From NCBI RefSeq assembly GCF_057098645.1, contig NZ_CM169472.1: 64,000 bases of DNA; one strand, given 5' to 3'. Positions within the stretch are counted from its first letter, which is position 1, and every line of letters begins with the position of its first letter. This document shows positions 80 through 60,878 of this stretch, one piece after another. A program made the position numbers and the translations under genes. Under the pieces are notes generated by a model. The model ran no database searches and was not told the origin of the DNA. It was given only the letters and a program-made list of their open reading frames with translations.

Positions 80-168
80 AAACCGCCACCTTTATTAAGA
101 GTGGCGTATTGTACGCTGTGAACGCGTTGGGATCTACCTGTGGAAAAGTATGGGATTAAAAAAGCCGA

Positions 169-627
169 TCAGGGCTTGATGGTACGCATGATCGGGTTCT
201 GCAGGACGATCAGTGTCTCGGTGGACTGAATTTCATCAATTGTTTGGATCTTGTTGATAAGTACATGCTGGAGAGCATCGATCGAACGGCACATCACTTT
301 TATAAAGATGCTGTAGTGGCCGGTGGTGTAGTACGCCTCGGTCACTTCATCGAGGCTTTCCAGCTTTGCCAGCGCGGAAGGATAGTCTTTGGCGCTCTTT
401 AATATAATGCCGATAAAGCAGCCTACGTCATAACCGAGCTGCTTCGGGCTGACATCAATACGCGCCCCGGTAATGATCCCCGCCTGCTTCATTTTCTCTA
501 CTCGAACGTGAATCGTCCCCGGACTGACGCCAAATTGTTTCGCCAGTTCGGCGTAAGCGGTGCGCGCATTGCCCATTAATGCTTCCAGGATGCCACGGTC
601 CAGATTGTCGATTAGATAATTTTCCAT
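169..627 (-). CDS. asnC: Lrp/AsnC-family transcriptional regulator AsnC
   Basis: 152-aa ORF, divergent from asnA; protein recognised. Confidence 0.93.
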   Translation of the reverse strand: MENYLIDNLDRGILEALMGNARTAYAELAKQFGVSPGTIHVRVEKMKQAGIITGARIDVSPKQLGYDVGCFIGIILKSAKDYPSALAKLESLDEVTEAYYTTGHYSIFIKVMCRSIDALQHVLINKIQTIDEIQSTETLIVLQNPIMRTIKP

Positions 628-778
628 AGGATTTTCTTATGCAGATTGATGATTCATTCTATTTTAGCCTTCTTTTTTAATGAATCAAAAGTGTGTGAGG
701 CTTTTTATTGAATGATTATTGCATGTGTATCGGTTTTTGTTGCTTAATCATAAGCAACAGGACGCAGGAGTATAAAAA

Positions 779-1771
779 ATGAAAACCGCTTACATTGCCA
801 AACAACGTCAAATTAGCTTCGTGAAATCTCACTTTTCTCGTCAACTGGAAGAACGTCTGGGGCTGATCGAAGTCCAGGCGCCGATTCTTAGCCGTGTGGG
901 GGATGGCACGCAGGATAACTTGTCGGGCTGTGAAAAAGCGGTGCAGGTAAAAGTGAAAGCTCTGCCTGATGCCCAGTTCGAAGTGGTTCATTCACTGGCG
1001 AAGTGGAAACGTCAGACCTTAGGGCAACACGACTTCAGCGCGGGCGAAGGGCTGTACACGCACATGAAAGCCCTTCGCCCCGATGAAGACCGTCTTTCTC
1101 CGTTGCACTCGGTCTATGTAGACCAGTGGGACTGGGAACGCGTAATGGGCGACGGTGAGCGTCAATTCTCGACTCTGAAAAGCACGGTAGAGGCGATCTG
1201 GGCGGGAATTAAAGCAACCGAAGCTGCGGTTAGCGAAGAGTTTGGCCTAGCACCGTTCCTGCCGGATCAGATCCACTTCGTACACAGCCAGGAGTTACTG
1301 TCTCGTTATCCGGATCTCGATGCCAAAGGGCGTGAGCGGGCGATTGCGAAAGATCTTGGCGCGGTATTCCTCGTCGGGATTGGCGGCAAGTTGAGTGATG
1401 GTCATCGTCACGACGTGCGCGCACCGGATTATGATGACTGGAGCACCCCGTCAGAGCTGGGCCATGCGGGCCTGAACGGCGATATTCTGGTGTGGAACCC
1501 GGTACTGGAAGATGCGTTTGAGCTTTCTTCCATGGGGATCCGCGTGGATGCCGACACGCTGAAGCATCAGCTGGCGCTGACCGGTGACGAAGATCGCCTG
1601 GAGCTGGAGTGGCATCAGGCGCTGCTGCGCGGTGAAATGCCGCAGACCATCGGCGGCGGTATCGGCCAGTCTCGTTTGACCATGCTGCTGCTGCAACTGC
1701 CGCATATCGGCCAGGTTCAGTGTGGAGTATGGCCAGCTGCTGTTCGCGAGAGCGTCCCTTCTCTGCTGTAA
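779..1771 (+). CDS. asnA: aspartate--ammonia ligase (asparagine synthetase A)
   Basis: 330-aa ORF, protein recognised; divergent partner of asnC. Confidence 0.95.
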
Positions 1772-1775
1772 TAAT

Positions 1776-3227
1776 TTATCGCCGCCAGCGTCTGAGCAGG
1801 CGGCTTCGCATCCCGGTATCAAAGCGCCAGATATGATCGAAAATGCGCATGATGCCGGGTTTGCCGTGTGCCGACATCGCCACGGCATGAAAGCGATGCT
1901 GATGTACCCGCTGCAGCTCTTTCACTTTACTCGTCACGTCGTCAGGCAACCGCTGGGCGATAAAATCAGAAATCACCACCGCATCGGCATCAAACCATTC
2001 CCTGCTTTGCAAGCGTTCCATAATGGCGCGAAAACAACTGGCAAGATCGGTGCCGCCACGAAACTGCTGGCTTAAAAAACGGATTGCTTGTTCGATGCCT
2101 TGTGGGCCTGAAAGCTCATAACGGACGATCTCGGTGGAAAATAGCATAATATAACAGCGCCGGTTTTCAGCGAGAGCAATGCGCATCAAAGCCAGGCAGA
2201 ACGCTTTCGCACACTGTTCATTAAAGCCGCCCATTGAGCCGGAAGTATCCACGCAGACAATAAACGGTCCGCGCGGCTGTTCGTCGTAATCTTTATGCAC
2301 CACCGGGCGTTCGATCACTTTTTCACGCCACGACTCACCGTGCAGGCGATAGGTGAGCAACTGTTTTTCCACCAGCCGACGGTAAAACTCATACTCCAGT
2401 TCCGTTATCCCTAGTGTCGCCAGTTCTGGCGGCAGAAGACGTAAAATATCATCGCTTTGTTGCAGACCATCAACCTGCTCAGGAACCGTCGCCGGTTCGC
2501 GCACCATGGTGCGGAAGGTTTCCATCTGCGCATCGTTACGCGGTATTGATTTGGCTTCCCGAGAACGCCCCAGCTGCTCTGCCAGGCGTTTCAGTTCCGG
2601 CTGTTCGTTAAGAAATTCACCGTATTTCACAATCAACTGATAGTCGCCACGTTTAAGCTGACTGGCGCTCATATCCCACAGACGACCAGCTGCGGTATTG
2701 TTATCTGCGAGAATCGGTTCAAGTTGTCCGCTCAGCGTCATGCGTTCCTGAACTTCACTCAACAGTTGTTCGCGTTCTTCTTCTAATAGCTGTTGATTTA
2801 ACGTCGTTGCTTGCACGATCAGACTTAAACGCCAGCGCTGGAGAAAAAGCGTGTGTAACGCTGAAGTGATCGTGCTGTTAGTATCAACCAACTGCCGGGC
2901 TTGTTCTGCCCATGGGGAATTCAGACGATGCAGTAAGTCCATGATCTGTGGTAGCTGCACAATAAACTGCGGCGTGGAGAGGAGCTGGCTTTGCTGATAG
3001 CACATCACCTCTTCGGTGAGTTCCGGCGGGACTCGGGCATCTTTCAGCCGACTGCGCAGCGCCTCACGCCAGCGGGGAACATCATCAGTGATTGCCGCCT
3101 TCAGTCGTGGGAATTTTTCAAAGAAGACCGCCAGCTGCGGTGAGGCCAGCAGCGCGATGATCATCTCTTCGATCAATCCCTCTTCGCTGACGGCCAGCAT
3201 CACATTAAGCGTATCCAGCGTTAGCAT
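1776..3227 (-). CDS. viaA: VWA-domain protein ViaA, partner of RavA
   Basis: 483-aa ORF immediately downstream of ravA with a 7-bp overlap. Confidence 0.9.
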
Positions 3228-37563: not shown

Positions 37564-37609
37564 TCAAGGCCGGAAAAGATGCGTCAGCATCGCATCCGGC
37601 ACTTACTCA

Positions 37610-57820: not shown

Positions 57821-59056
57821 ATGCTGCAACAGGTTCCAACGCGTGCTTTTCATGTGATGGCGAAACCGAGCGGTTCCGATTGTAATCTGAACTGTGACTA
57901 CTGTTTTTATCTCGAAAAACAATCCCTTTACCGCGAAAAGCCAGTCACGCATATGGACGATGACACGCTGGAAGCGTATGTCCGTCACTATATCGCTGCC
58001 AGCGAAACCCAAAACGAAGTGGCTTTTACCTGGCAGGGCGGCGAACCAACGTTACTCGGGCTGGATTTTTACCGCCGTGCCGTGGCTCTACAGGCGAAAT
58101 ATGGTGCTGGCAGGAAGATAAGTAACAGCTTCCAGACTAACGGCGTACTGCTCGATGATGAATGGTGTGCATTTCTGGCAGAAAATCATTTTCTTGTTGG
58201 GTTATCGCTGGATGGTCCGGCTGAGATCCACAATCAATATCGCGTGACCAAAGGTGGCAGACCAACGCATAAGCTGGTGATGCGTGCCCTGACGCTGCTG
58301 CAAAAACATCATGTCGACTATAACGTGCTGGTCTGCGTCAACCGCACCAGCGCGCAGCAACCGTTGCAGGTTTATGATTTTTTGTGCGATGCGGGAGTGG
58401 AATTCATCCAGTTTATTCCGGTGGTCGAGCGCCTGGCTGATGAAACAGCTGCCCGCGATGGACTGAAACTACATGCGCCTGGTGATATTCAGGGGGAACT
58501 GACGGAATGGTCGGTGCGCCCCGATGAATTTGGTGAATTTCTGGTGGCGATATTCGACCACTGGATCAAACGCGACGTCGGCAAGATTTTCGTGATGAAT
58601 ATCGAATGGGCGTTTGCCAATTTTGTCGGTGCGCCGGGTGCGGTTTGCCATCATCAGCCAACCTGTGGGCGCTCGGTGATTGTTGAGCACAACGGCGACG
58701 TTTACGCCTGCGATCACTATGTTTATCCGCAATATCGGTTGGGGAATATGCACCAGCAAACAATTGCAGAAATGGTAGATTCTCCGCAGCAGCAGGCTTT
58801 TGGTGAAGATAAATTTAAGCAGTTACCGGCGCAGTGTCGCAGTTGCAACGTGTTAAAAGCGTGCTGGGGAGGCTGCCCGAAACACCGCTTCATGCTCAAT
58901 GCCAGCGGTAAACCGGGGCTGAATTATTTGTGTGCCGGGTATCAGCGTTATTTCCGCCATCTACCGCCATATCTTAAAGCAATGGCTGATTTGCTGGCGC
59001 ACGGTCGCCCGGCCAGTGACATTATGCAGGCACATTTGCTGGTGGTGAGTAAGTAG
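57821..59056 (+). CDS. aslB: anaerobic sulfatase-maturating enzyme homologue (radical SAM)
   Basis: Start at MLQQVPTRAFHVMAKPSG (411 aa); CNLNCDYC radical-SAM cysteine triad and C-terminal Cys clusters. Confidence 0.9.
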   Translation: MLQQVPTRAFHVMAKPSGSDCNLNCDYCFYLEKQSLYREKPVTHMDDDTLEAYVRHYIAASETQNEVAFTWQGGEPTLLGLDFYRRAVALQAKYGAGRKISNSFQTNGVLLDDEWCAFLAENHFLVGLSLDGPAEIHNQYRVTKGGRPTHKLVMRALTLLQKHHVDYNVLVCVNRTSAQQPLQVYDFLCDAGVEFIQFIPVVERLADETAARDGLKLHAPGDIQGELTEWSVRPDEFGEFLVAIFDHWIKRDVGKIFVMNIEWAFANFVGAPGAVCHHQPTCGRSVIVEHNGDVYACDHYVYPQYRLGNMHQQTIAEMVDSPQQQAFGEDKFKQLPAQCRSCNVLKACWGGCPKHRFMLNASGKPGLNYLCAGYQRYFRHLPPYLKAMADLLAHGRPASDIMQAHLLVVSK

Positions 59057-59078
59057 AAATCGGCGGCCGCCTGCGGTT

Positions 59079-59190
59079 GATTGCCGGATGCGATGCTGAC
59101 CGCATCTTATCCGGCCTACAGAACGCTACAATTTATTGAATTTGCAAGGCTTGTAGGCCGGATAAGGCGTTCACGCCGCATCCGGCAAGG
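59079..59190. repeat. pair of inverted REP (repetitive extragenic palindromic) elements
   Basis: TGCCGGATGCGATGCTGACCGCATCTTATCCGGCCTACA and, in opposite orientation, TTGTAGGCCGGATAAGGCGTTCACGCCGCATCCGGCAA, between convergent aslB and aslA. Confidence 0.85.
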
Positions 59191-59222
59191 TCAGTGTGGC
59201 CCGATGTAGCGATATCGCCGGC

Positions 59223-60878
59223 TTAATCAGATTTAATCTGCGCGCGTGGTGGATATTTTTTCAGGATCTCCATATACGCGTGCATTTCGGTCTGTAGCGG
59301 TACACCCATCGGAATATGGCGCACGCCGATAGAGTCGCTCTCCTGCGGATCGGTGTACAGGTTAAACACCGACGATCCGGCTGTTTGCATTACTGTGCCG
59401 GTGAATCCACCCTGATATCCGCTCTGGGTATAAGCGTAAGGTTGCTGAATCAGGACGTGATACTTGAATTCATCCATACGCACAGCAGCGAGTTTACCGT
59501 TGAGGAAGTAGTGCTCGGCCTTACGGTTAGACTGACCATTTGTTCCCAGGAAGAAAGATGTCTGGTCCACACCATCGATAAAGGTGGTTTTCGGCACTAA
59601 ATTCGCCACTTTCGCGCCAGGATGCCCTGCCAGATCCAGCGCGGTAGGGAAGAGATCTGCCAGATCGACAATACCGTCAGATTTACGCGGTTGGATCATC
59701 CCTTTCCAGTACACGAAAGTCGGAACGCGAACGCCGCCTTCCCAGGTCGAACCTTTCGCACCACGGAACGGTGTGCGTCCGTGCGGCGGTACTTCGGCTT
59801 CCGGTCCGTTATCGGAGGTAAAGACAATCAGCGTGTTATCAAGCTGACCGTTTTTTTCCAGTGCTTTATACAGATTAGCGAACACATCGTTCATTTCCAC
59901 CATGCAGTCGCCATACGAGGTGCGTGCCGGAGAGCTACCCGCATATTTGGCGTTCGGGTAGTTATCGAAGTGACAGCCGCGAGTGCCGTAATAGAGGAAG
60001 AAAGGCTTATCACTCTTCGCCATCTTGTCGAGGAACTTAACGCCATATTCCATCCAGCGTTGATCCAGATCTTCCATATATTTCGGCGTAATGTCGGCAA
60101 TGGCCTGTTGTTCGCCGCCGCGCACCGCATGAACGTCATCTTTGCTAAATGGTAATTGCTTGATGTATTCAGAACGGTCCGGACTCAGGGCCACTTCCGG
60201 GTTTACGTGAACGTCGCGCCATTCGGTGTACATATCAGACACCGAGTTAAAGCCACGGAAATCATCAAAGCCAACGTTCTGCGGCTGCGACTCTTTGTTT
60301 TCCCCCATATGCCATTTCCCGATGGCCTGAGTGACGTAGCCCTGATCGTGCAGCAACTGCGGCAGCGTGGTTAACCCTTGCAGCCCGCCCGGTTGCCCAT
60401 ACATTGGCGGCATCAGAATGCCGTGGTGGATGGAGTATTGTCCGGTGAGAATAGTGGCGCGGGTTGGGGAAGAGCTTGGTTGAGAATACGCCGAAGTTAA
60501 AATCAGCCCCTGGCTGGCAACGGCGTCGATATCTGGTGTATGGTTACCCACTGCCACGCCGCCACCGTTAAAACCGACGTCCATCCAGCCCACATCGTCC
60601 AGCAAGAAAACAACCACATTCGGTTTCTTACCGGTTTTTTTCTCAAGTTCTGCCAGCTTCTGCTGGGTTTCTTTATCCTGCGCCGGATGCTGCATTACTG
60701 GCATCATGTTGTCGGCAATAGTGGTCGCCGGTTTAACCAGATACTGGTTTGGGTGATCGTATCCGGCAAAGCCTTTGCGTGCGGTGGCAGTTGACGGGGT
60801 ATCTGCTGCGCTGGCCATGAGAGGAAGAGCGGCGGCGACAGCAACAACAAGACGTTTGGGTGAAAACGAAAATTCCAT
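59223..60878 (-). CDS. aslA: arylsulfatase-like protein
   Basis: 551 aa with signal peptide and sulfatase signature S-S-P-T-R in [15 protein letters not shown]. Confidence 0.92.

What the first reader, a model, noticed from the sequence alone, without database searches (positions are those of the whole stretch)
59060..59215. Inverted REP pair between convergent aslB and aslA
Two REP units in opposite orientation separated by about 30 bp form a mosaic element. Such elements can stabilise upstream mRNA, bind gyrase or IHF, and act as recombination and IS-target hotspots. A partial REP-like palindrome also follows rep at 37571-37605.
Basis: partly seen in the sequence, partly recalled or inferred. 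Interest (0 to 1): 0.15.

Follow-up and report, generated by a model that had tools for sequence, protein, structure and literature searches.

The report
Known REP pair, flipped between strains
The finding is an ordinary, well-known E. coli repeat: two REP hairpins around an IHF-type linker (a BIME-1), between the converging genes aslB and aslA. The one less ordinary point is that this 108-bp cassette sits in opposite orientations, is half-deleted, or marks a gene deletion in different strains.

Summary
Window 59081-59188 holds two inverted REP units 33 nt apart, in the 166-bp gap between convergent aslB and aslA.

- **Right unit:** a perfect y-type REP, 34/34 to the published consensus.
- **Left unit:** a 38-nt z1-like variant.
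- **Linker:** carries the conserved L motif, whose invariant bases coincide with the IHF consensus.

This makes it a BIME-1 (IHF type), not the gyrase-binding BIME-2 type. The palindrome after rep (37566-37604) is a solo REP that lacks GTAG.

New here:
- The core is the reverse complement of the K-12 copy (101/109 against 87/114 forward).
- Strains 6EVA and LHM10-1 have flanks identical to the window but a flipped core (98/102), so this is an inversion in place.
- E. albertii and E. whittamii share the window's orientation. Relatives outside Escherichia have only a terminator hairpin at this site.

Rough counts among 5426 complete E. coli genomes:

| Allele | Genomes |
|---|---|
| K-12 orientation | 2210 |
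| Window orientation | 49 |
| One chimeric REP left after a short-repeat deletion | about 1400 |
| aslA deletion ending in the right REP | 1729 |

This is a known kind of element and low in interest. The flip polymorphism is a modest extra.

The parts
57821..59056 (+). aslB (anaerobic sulfatase maturase) CDS, with its TAG stop at 59054-59056. It is the left convergent neighbour. The left REP starts 25 nt after the stop.
   Evidence: RefSeq annotation of 100% identical strain 95-3192; ORF list.
59062..59071 (.). GGCGGCCGCC, the collapsed remnant of a hairpin. In other strains the full hairpin reads AAAAGCGGCCATTTTGTGGCCGC and looks like a minus-strand intrinsic terminator.
   Evidence: Allele comparison. 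A terminator-like site is called in the long allele and in Kluyvera, but none in the window's intergenic gap.
59081..59188 (.). The whole BIME-1 core, which is the unit that is inverted between strains. It is bounded by perfect 12-bp inverted arms, TTGCCGGATGCG (59081-59092) and CGCATCCGGCAA (59177-59188).
   Evidence: Inverted repeats I1 and I2. Reverse complement of the K-12 core, 101/109 against 87/114 forward. Flipped in 6EVA with identical flanks.
59082..59119 (-). Left REP unit, 38 nt. It is z1-like in length and inner stem but has y-type CCGGAT/ATCCGG feet. On the + strand it reads as an iREP ending in CTAC; its GTAG is on the - strand.
   Evidence: 31-33 of 38-39 identical to canonical z1 units of other BIME-1 copies, 32/38 to y. 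Alignment A2. Fold -21.4/-21.9 kcal/mol.
59120..59152 (.). L-type linker between CTAC and GTAG.
   Evidence: Aligns with the linkers of BIME-1 copies at dtpD-phrB, yaaX-yaaA, nadR-ettA and fetB-cnoX. The invariant columns are CAA..TATTGAA.
59129..59141 (-). IHF-type core ATTCAATAAATTG. It matches 8 of the 9 specified positions of the consensus WATCAANNNNTTR.
   Evidence: TTCAATAWATTG occurs once in the 64 kb, against 0.03 expected. The invariant linker columns in A2 coincide with the specified consensus positions. The IHF consensus itself is from general knowledge.
59153..59187 (+). Right REP unit, y type, with its 5' GTAG on the + strand. It ends 35 nt before the aslA stop.
   Evidence: Exact 34/34 match to the published consensus. 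36/36 BLAST match, E = 4e-16. Fold -21.8/-21.3 kcal/mol.
59223..60878 (-). aslA (arylsulfatase) CDS, the right convergent neighbour. In the deletion allele found in 1729 genomes, positions equivalent to about 59156-60740 are deleted.
37566..37604 (-). Solo REP hairpin between convergent rep and gpp. It has the same z1-variant loop but CAAG in place of GTAG. It lies 3 nt after the rep stop and 6 nt before the gpp stop.

Best explanation
This is a BIME-1 (also called a RIP/RIB element). It is a single doublet of inverted REP units, one y and one z1-like, around an L linker that carries an IHF-type site.

**Origin.** It entered the aslB-aslA gap in an ancestor of Escherichia, next to the original terminator hairpin.

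**How it most likely works (inferred).**
- On DNA it is an IHF-binding, cruciform-prone quasi-palindrome.
- On RNA, transcripts entering from either gene fold into REP hairpins, or into one roughly 50-bp hairpin. That would block 3' exonucleases and impede read-through into the converging gene. This may matter more in the window's allele, which has lost the neighbouring intrinsic terminator.

**Plasticity (shown).** The inverted and direct micro-repeats make it a local hotspot. The 108-bp core has inverted in place at least once and probably twice. Slippage between 6-7-bp repeats has reduced it to one chimeric hairpin in about a quarter of genomes. A 1.6-kb aslA deletion ends in its right unit in about a third.

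So much loss argues that any local function is dispensable.
For: **Family identity**
- The y unit matches the published consensus exactly.
- The architecture and linker align with four other BIME-1 copies. The invariant linker bases fall on the IHF consensus positions.
- The L core is unique in the window.
- The BIME-1 definition (z1 + y, single copy, L linker, IHF site) comes from PMC3333891.

**Structure**
- RNA folds at -88.4 and -81.8 kcal/mol, z = -5.7 and -6.1.
- Single-stranded DNA folds at -36.6 kcal/mol, z = -7.8.

**Inversion**
- Window core against K-12: 101/109 as reverse complement, 87/114 forward, with an identical left flank.
- 6EVA and LHM10-1: flanks 27/27 and 36/37 identical to the window, core 98/102 as reverse complement and 82/107 forward.
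- The locus-specific z1 variant is shared by both orientations, which excludes independent insertions.

**Polarity**
- E. albertii, E. whittamii and three other Escherichia lineages have the window's orientation.
- Kluyvera, Citrobacter, Pseudocitrobacter and Superficieibacter have no REP here, only a terminator hairpin.

**Census**

**Recurrent flipping**
- Two linker variants (the 6-nt ATCG type and the 5-nt CCT type) each occur in both orientations.
Against: - No binding, transcript-end or half-life data were available for this locus. The IHF ChIP paper holds no supplementary text. The IHF and RNA roles are therefore inferred from the family.
- The left unit is not a canonical z1. It has y-like feet and compensatory changes in the inner stem, so the BIME-1 label is by architecture.
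- The census counts rest on BLAST coverage thresholds and subtraction, not on extracted sequences.
- The case for two or more flips could instead reflect gene conversion from other BIME-1 copies.
- Two other BIME-1 loci showed no obvious flipped class, so flipping is not shown to be general.
Confidence: 0.9

Rival explanations
1. It is a BIME-2-type, gyrase-binding element that absorbs the positive supercoils built up between converging transcription units.
For: It contains a y-type REP, the unit gyrase cleaves preferentially (PMC6379681). It also lies between convergent genes, where positive supercoils build up.
Against: - There is no z2 unit, no short S linker and no tandem repetition.
- The linker is the long L type with the IHF core.
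- Published gyrase enrichment is for BIME-2.
Confidence: 0.07
2. It is simply a purpose-evolved bidirectional Rho-independent terminator for aslB and aslA, not a member of a repeat family.
For: It contains G+C-rich hairpins in the 3' region of both genes. Relatives outside Escherichia have a terminator at this position.
Against: - There is no T/U run after either stem, and no terminator-like site is called in the gap.
- The sequence is the genome-wide REP consensus.
- The ancestral terminator is a separate hairpin to the left of the element.
Confidence: 0.03
3. It is a programmed invertible switch. A recombinase would flip the cassette between its inverted repeats to regulate the neighbouring genes by phase variation.
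For: Both orientations exist in nature with identical flanks, and perfect 12-bp inverted repeats bound the segment.
Against: - No promoter-like site lies in or near the cassette.
- The cassette is nearly symmetric, so a flip changes little.
- Orientation is fixed within lineages: all 28 O145-type genomes share one orientation. That is not the mixed state expected of fast switching.
- No invertase is evident next to it.
Confidence: 0.03
4. The two orientations arose from independent insertions of different BIME-1 copies into the same site, or from excision and re-insertion by the REP-associated transposase TnpA(REP), not from inversion in place.
For: - TnpA(REP) cleaves and rejoins BIME strands in vitro, and an excision/integration model has been proposed (PMC3333891).
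- The GGCC|TAC cleavage motif is present on both strands (read from the sequence).
- Single-unit alleles exist that could serve as 'empty' sites.
Against: - Both orientations carry the same locus-specific z1 variant, which the other BIME-1 copies examined lack.
- The flanks are identical to the base, with no footprint or duplication.
- Outgroups already have the full element, so single-unit alleles are derived.
Confidence: 0.08
5. The region encodes a small RNA of the naRNA4 or ES036 kind.
For: Sub-threshold Rfam matches:
- naRNA4 at 40.4 and 33.5 bits, against a gathering score of 59.5.
- ES036 at 29.3 bits, against 37.6, on the linker's minus strand.
Against: - All matches are below the gathering scores.
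- Each REP unit matches only half of the naRNA4 model, which is itself built from a REP cluster.
- There is no promoter-like site.
Confidence: 0.05

Closest known systems
BIME-1, also called RIP/RIB (repetitive IHF-binding palindromic) elements of E. coli
   Same: - Two inverted REP units, tail to tail, with CTAC and GTAG facing the linker.
- One canonical y unit.
- A long L linker with the conserved TTCAATAnnTTG IHF-type core.
- A single copy, extragenic, at the 3' ends of transcription units (PMC3333891).
   Different: - The second unit is a variant z1. It has CCGGAT/ATCCGG feet instead of CCTGAT/ATCAGG and a GATGC/GCATC inner stem instead of GACGC/GCGTC.
- This extends the perfect outer inverted repeat from 4 to 12 bp.
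- The cassette is orientation-dimorphic among strains.
REPINs (REP doublets forming hairpins, the proposed mobile unit of RAYT/TnpA(REP) transposases)
   Same: An inverted REP doublet that folds into one long hairpin on either strand. It has a GTAG-bearing REP and a CC|TAC iREP site on each strand.
   Different: - Whether the host genome carries the transposase gene was not tested.
- This copy has stayed at one locus since before E. coli and E. albertii split, so it is not recently mobile.
- The outer TGCC|TGAT cleavage motif is absent; the sequence reads TGCCGGAT.
BIME-2 (gyrase-binding tandem y/z2 arrays)
   Same: It contains a y REP and is extragenic.
   Different: No z2 unit, no S/s/l/r linkers and no tandem amplification.
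The K-12 MG1655 aslB-aslA intergenic BIME (same locus)
   Same: The same element at the same site, with an identical left flank.
   Different: - The core is in the opposite orientation (101/109 as reverse complement).
- K-12 also has an 8-9-bp deletion in the right flank and GGCTGG for GGCCGG in the z1 unit.

Membership tests
REP (repetitive extragenic palindrome) of E. coli | Match to the REP consensus, including the GTAG/CTAC tetranucleotide | tested here: met
   The right unit matches the published consensus 34/34. The left unit carries CTAC and matches 32/38 to y. Both are found by a systematic scan of the 64 kb.
REP (repetitive extragenic palindrome) of E. coli | Imperfect palindrome that folds into a stem-loop with an internal mismatch | tested here: met
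   Each unit folds at about -21 to -22 kcal/mol, with z = -3.4 to -5.4, and has an internal loop.
REP (repetitive extragenic palindrome) of E. coli | Extragenic and highly repeated in the genome | tested here: met
   It lies in the 166-bp gap between two CDS. The median is 38-40 matching places per genome, and this figure is capped by the tool.
BIME-1 / RIP | One y and one z1 REP in inverse orientation | tested here: inconclusive
   The y unit is exact. The other unit has z1 length (38 nt) and stem layout but y-type feet. It is 31-33 of 38-39 identical to canonical z1 and 32/38 to y.
BIME-1 / RIP | Long L linker with a conserved IHF-binding motif | tested here: met
   The 33-nt linker aligns with four other BIME-1 linkers. 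The invariant columns equal the IHF consensus positions, and the core is unique in the window.
BIME-1 / RIP | Single copy, not tandemly amplified | tested here: met
   The gap holds one doublet only. No allele seen in other strains has more than two units.
BIME-1 / RIP | Actual IHF binding | not testable with these tools
   No ChIP tables were accessible.
BIME-2 | z2 unit, short S linker, tandem repetition | tested here: not met
   No z2-length unit. The linker is L type and the element is a single copy.
TnpA(REP)/RAYT substrate (REPIN-like) | A REP with a 5' GTAG and a bulged stem, plus a CC|T cleavage site in the iREP | tested here: met
   Read from the sequence against the motifs in PMC3333891:
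- GTAG at 59153-59156 (+ strand), and on the - strand at 59119-59116.
- GGCC|TACA present on both strands.
- The outer TGCC|TGAT site is absent.
TnpA(REP)/RAYT substrate (REPIN-like) | A cognate transposase gene in the same genome | not tested
   The gene is not in the window. Published prevalence is 74 of 110 E. coli/Shigella genomes.
naRNA4 (Rfam RF02564) | Score at or above the family's gathering threshold | tested here: not met
   Best score 40.4 bits against 59.5. Only half of the model is matched.
Rho-independent terminator | A G+C-rich stem followed by a T run | tested here: not met
   No terminator-like site is called in 59057-59222 on either strand.

The most novel reading that the evidence does not exclude
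The aslB-aslA BIME-1 is a recurrently flipping cassette. Its variant z1 unit has y-type feet, which create perfect 12-bp outer inverted repeats. These allow the whole 108-bp doublet, linker and loops included, to invert in place more than once in Escherichia. The route could be template switching or hairpin processing at the quasi-palindrome, or TnpA(REP). Each flip reverses the polarity of the IHF site and swaps which REP type faces each gene. If the same occurs at other REP doublets, it would be an overlooked class of very small inversion polymorphism.
Probability: 0.3. Interest if true: 0.4.

Novelty: already known. Interest (0 to 1): 0.2.

Why it matters
As an element it adds nothing new. 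REP/BIME repeats have been catalogued in E. coli for decades, and this locus carries one in K-12 too.

The population picture is a compact natural example of how a REP doublet destabilises its neighbourhood:
- one clean inversion in place, probably recurrent;
- two independent micro-repeat deletions;
- one gene-sized deletion that removes most of aslA in about a third of sequenced strains. From memory, aslA is a gene implicated in invasion by K1 strains.

The orientation flip also lowers apparent identity in alignments. It produced the 81% 'identity' seen, so it can be mistaken for divergence.

Tried and rejected
- **Fuzzy-regex consensus scan:** timed out. I replaced it with exact motif counts plus blastn-short.
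- **RefSeq K-12 record:** lists no repeat_region features for this 28-kb stretch, so database REP numbering could not be used.
- **IHF ChIP-seq paper (PMC3333857):** does not mention REP elements and holds no supplementary text.
- **Papers not held:** Bachellier 1997 (PMC1207841) and Boccard & Prentki 1993 (PMC413762). I therefore cannot say whether BIME-1 flips were described there. Full-text searches found no open paper that describes them. One search was wasted on 'bimetallic' matches.
- **Introgression from a cryptic Escherichia lineage:** considered because MOD1-EC7003 has an almost identical gap. Rejected because aslB identity to it (95.1%) is no higher than to K-12 (95.9%).
- **Flipping at other BIME-1 loci:** tested at yaaX-yaaA and dtpD-phrB. 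Only presence/absence and partial-deletion classes appeared in the sampled rows.
- **42-aa ORF at 59081-59209:** a mechanical ORF inside the repeat, not pursued.

Full report
**What is there**

The window is E. coli. Positions 58700-59600 are 100% identical to strain 95-3192, and the gap is identical to 26 genomes that include every O145 strain listed, with 2 more at 99.2%. RefSeq annotation of the identical genome places aslB at 57821-59056 (+) and aslA at 59223-60878 (-).

The 166-bp gap contains, in order:
- a short GC palindrome at 59062-59071;
- a 38-nt REP unit at 59082-59119, which ends in CTAC on the + strand;
- a 33-nt linker at 59120-59152;
- a 35-nt REP unit at 59153-59187, which starts with GTAG.

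The units pair as perfect inverted repeats: 15 nt for the inner arms and 12 nt for the outer arms.

**Is it real, and is it REP?**

The reverse complement of the right unit contains the published consensus GCCGGATGCGGCGTGAACGCCTTATCCGGCCTAC exactly (PMC12306157). A systematic scan of the 64 kb finds only three REP units: these two, and one at 37567-37601.

Fold energies are far beyond shuffled controls:
- single units, z = -3.4 to -5.4;
- the whole element as RNA, -88.4 and -81.8 kcal/mol, z = -5.7 and -6.1;
- the whole element as single-stranded DNA, -36.6 kcal/mol, z = -7.8.

**Which kind of BIME?**

PMC3333891 defines BIME-1 as one z1 and one y unit, in a single copy, separated by a well-conserved long linker L that often carries an IHF site. 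BIME-2 is y plus z2 in tandem arrays.

I fetched four other BIME-1 copies (dtpD-phrB, yaaX-yaaA, nadR-ettA, fetB-cnoX) and aligned them with this locus. The architecture is the same. The invariant linker columns, CAA..TATTGAA, read on the other strand as TTCAATA..TTG. These are exactly the specified positions of the IHF consensus WATCAANNNNTTR, and 8 of 9 match here at 59129-59141. That core occurs once in the window, against 0.03 expected.

The left unit is not a textbook z1. It has z1 length and stem layout but y-type CCGGAT/ATCCGG feet and a compensated GATGC/GCATC inner stem. It is 31-33 of 38-39 identical to z1 and 32/38 to y. One consequence is a perfect 12-bp outer inverted repeat, against 4 bp in canonical copies.

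**The unexpected part: orientation**

The K-12 gap aligned poorly through the core. A direct test shows that the window core 59081-59188 is the reverse complement of the K-12 core: 101/109 identical, against 87/114 forward. The 24-nt left flank is identical. K-12 has y on the left and z1 on the right; the window has the opposite.

The cleanest case is strains 6EVA and LHM10-1. Their flanks match the window 27/27 and 36/37, but their core is flipped: 98/102 as reverse complement and 82/107 forward.

Both orientations carry the same locus-specific z1 variant. This is therefore an inversion in place, with breakpoints inside the outer arms, and not two separate insertions.

**Polarity and age**

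A scan of one genome per species gave these results:
- **Window orientation:** E. albertii, E. whittamii, Escherichia sp. MOD1-EC7003, and two lineages filed as E. coli species representatives (E69, SCPM-O-B-8794).
- **K-12 orientation:** Escherichia sp. E1V33.
- **No REP at all:** Kluyvera, Citrobacter, Pseudocitrobacter and Superficieibacter. They have only a G+C hairpin terminator between the two stop codons.

So the BIME entered in an Escherichia ancestor. The window's orientation is probably ancestral, and the common K-12 orientation is derived.

Two linker variants next to the y unit (6-nt ATCG type and 5-nt CCT type) each occur in both orientations. Ordinary parallel recombination cannot move a linker end to the other side, so this four-gamete pattern implies at least two flips, or conversion from other copies. 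I rate two or more flips at about 0.6.

**Census**

These counts are approximate. They come from BLAST coverage classes in 5426 complete genomes.

| Allele | Genomes | Basis |
|---|---|---|
| K-12 orientation with K-12-type flank | 2210 | |
| Window orientation, full element | 49 (28 O145-type, 21 RMDEC465-type) | |
| 6EVA type (flipped core, window-type flank) | 9 | |
| Window-type right flank in total | 640, implying about 582 single-unit alleles | |
| Intact aslB-aslA junction in total | 3662, implying about 812 further single-unit alleles | |
| aslA-deletion junction | 1729 | |

The single-unit alleles are explained base for base by deletion between short direct repeats in the two units:
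- GCCGGAT, a 74-bp deletion (ETEC1748, strain 2900);
- GATGCG, a 77-bp deletion (JSWP006, ST131).

The aslA deletion removes about 1.59 kb. Its proximal end lies within the first dozen bases of the right REP.

The 'recombination hotspot' statement is thus directly supported. The frequency of loss argues that whatever the element does locally is dispensable.

**Mechanism**

Shown:
- the sequence family;
- the hairpin potential on both strands;
- the conserved IHF-type core;
- the inversion;
- the deletions.

Inferred from family knowledge:
- IHF binding at the linker;
- protection of the aslB and aslA 3' ends by REP stems;
- attenuation of convergent read-through.

To the left of the BIME, many strains keep a hairpin, AAAAGCGGCCATTTTGTGGCCGC, that is called as a minus-strand terminator. 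The window and K-12 have a collapsed version (59062-59071), and no terminator-like site is called in the gap. In this allele the REP stems are therefore the only strong 3' structures.

How the flip happens is not shown. Template switching or hairpin processing at the quasi-palindrome seems likeliest, given breakpoints in 12-bp arms. TnpA(REP) is possible, since the GTAG and CC|TAC motifs are present on both strands (motifs).

Two other BIME-1 loci showed no obvious flipped class.

**Other checks**

- **Rfam:** gives only sub-threshold matches, naRNA4 on the REP units and ES036 on the linker. They reflect REP kinship, not membership.
- **The element after rep (37566-37604):** a solo REP, identical in K-12. 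It carries the same z1-variant loop but CAAG instead of GTAG, and it is squeezed into the 46-nt gap between rep and gpp.

**Verdict**

This is a correctly identified, already known kind of element, and of low interest as such. The in-place flip and the allelic series are a tidy, modestly interesting addition. I could not find the flip described in the accessible literature, but the key 1997 polymorphism paper was not available.

Noticed in passing
window 59156-60740 (equivalent positions); L005 3400-3530: A 1.59-kb deletion removes most of aslA in 1729 of 5426 complete E. coli genomes. Its proximal end lies within the first ~12 nt (GTAG..GGATA) of the right REP unit. The junction reads ...CAGCGTTCTGTGG|ATACTGGTTTGG.
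   Followed up: partly
window 59057-59080: The window and K-12 carry a collapsed GGCGGCCGCC where many strains have AAAAGCGGCCATTTTGTGGCCGC, a hairpin followed by a T run on the minus strand. That hairpin would terminate aslA transcripts after the BIME. Long and short forms occur with both BIME orientations, and relatives outside Escherichia have a strong terminator here.
   Followed up: partly
window 37566-37604: The solo REP between rep and gpp starts 3 nt after the rep stop and ends 6 nt before the gpp stop. From memory, this is close enough for the reported REP-dependent ribosome stalling at stop codons (within about 15 nt). It lacks GTAG, so it is probably not a transposase substrate, and it is identical in K-12.
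   Followed up: partly
window 59112-59152, minus strand: A sub-threshold Rfam match to the sRNA family ES036 (29.3 bits against a gathering score of 37.6) covers the L linker. This suggests the family was defined on a transcript from another BIME-1 linker.
   Followed up: no
window 57821-59056 and 59223-60122: aslB and the 3' part of aslA are unusually diverged within E. coli. Window against K-12 is 95.9% and 97.1% nucleotide identity, and against other strains it falls to 93.6%. That is comparable to the distance to other Escherichia species at this locus.
   Followed up: partly
window 59081-59209, + strand: A 42-codon TTG-initiated ORF lies entirely inside the BIME. In some RefSeq genomes 'hypothetical protein' or 'yahH' features are annotated over REP matches, which are likely annotation artefacts of the repeat.
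   Followed up: no
L017 3737-3880 ('E. coli' SCPM-O-B-8794): This lineage keeps both REP units in the window's orientation. Its linker, however, is a different 21-nt sequence without the IHF-type core, so the linker can be replaced while the REP pair persists.
   Followed up: no
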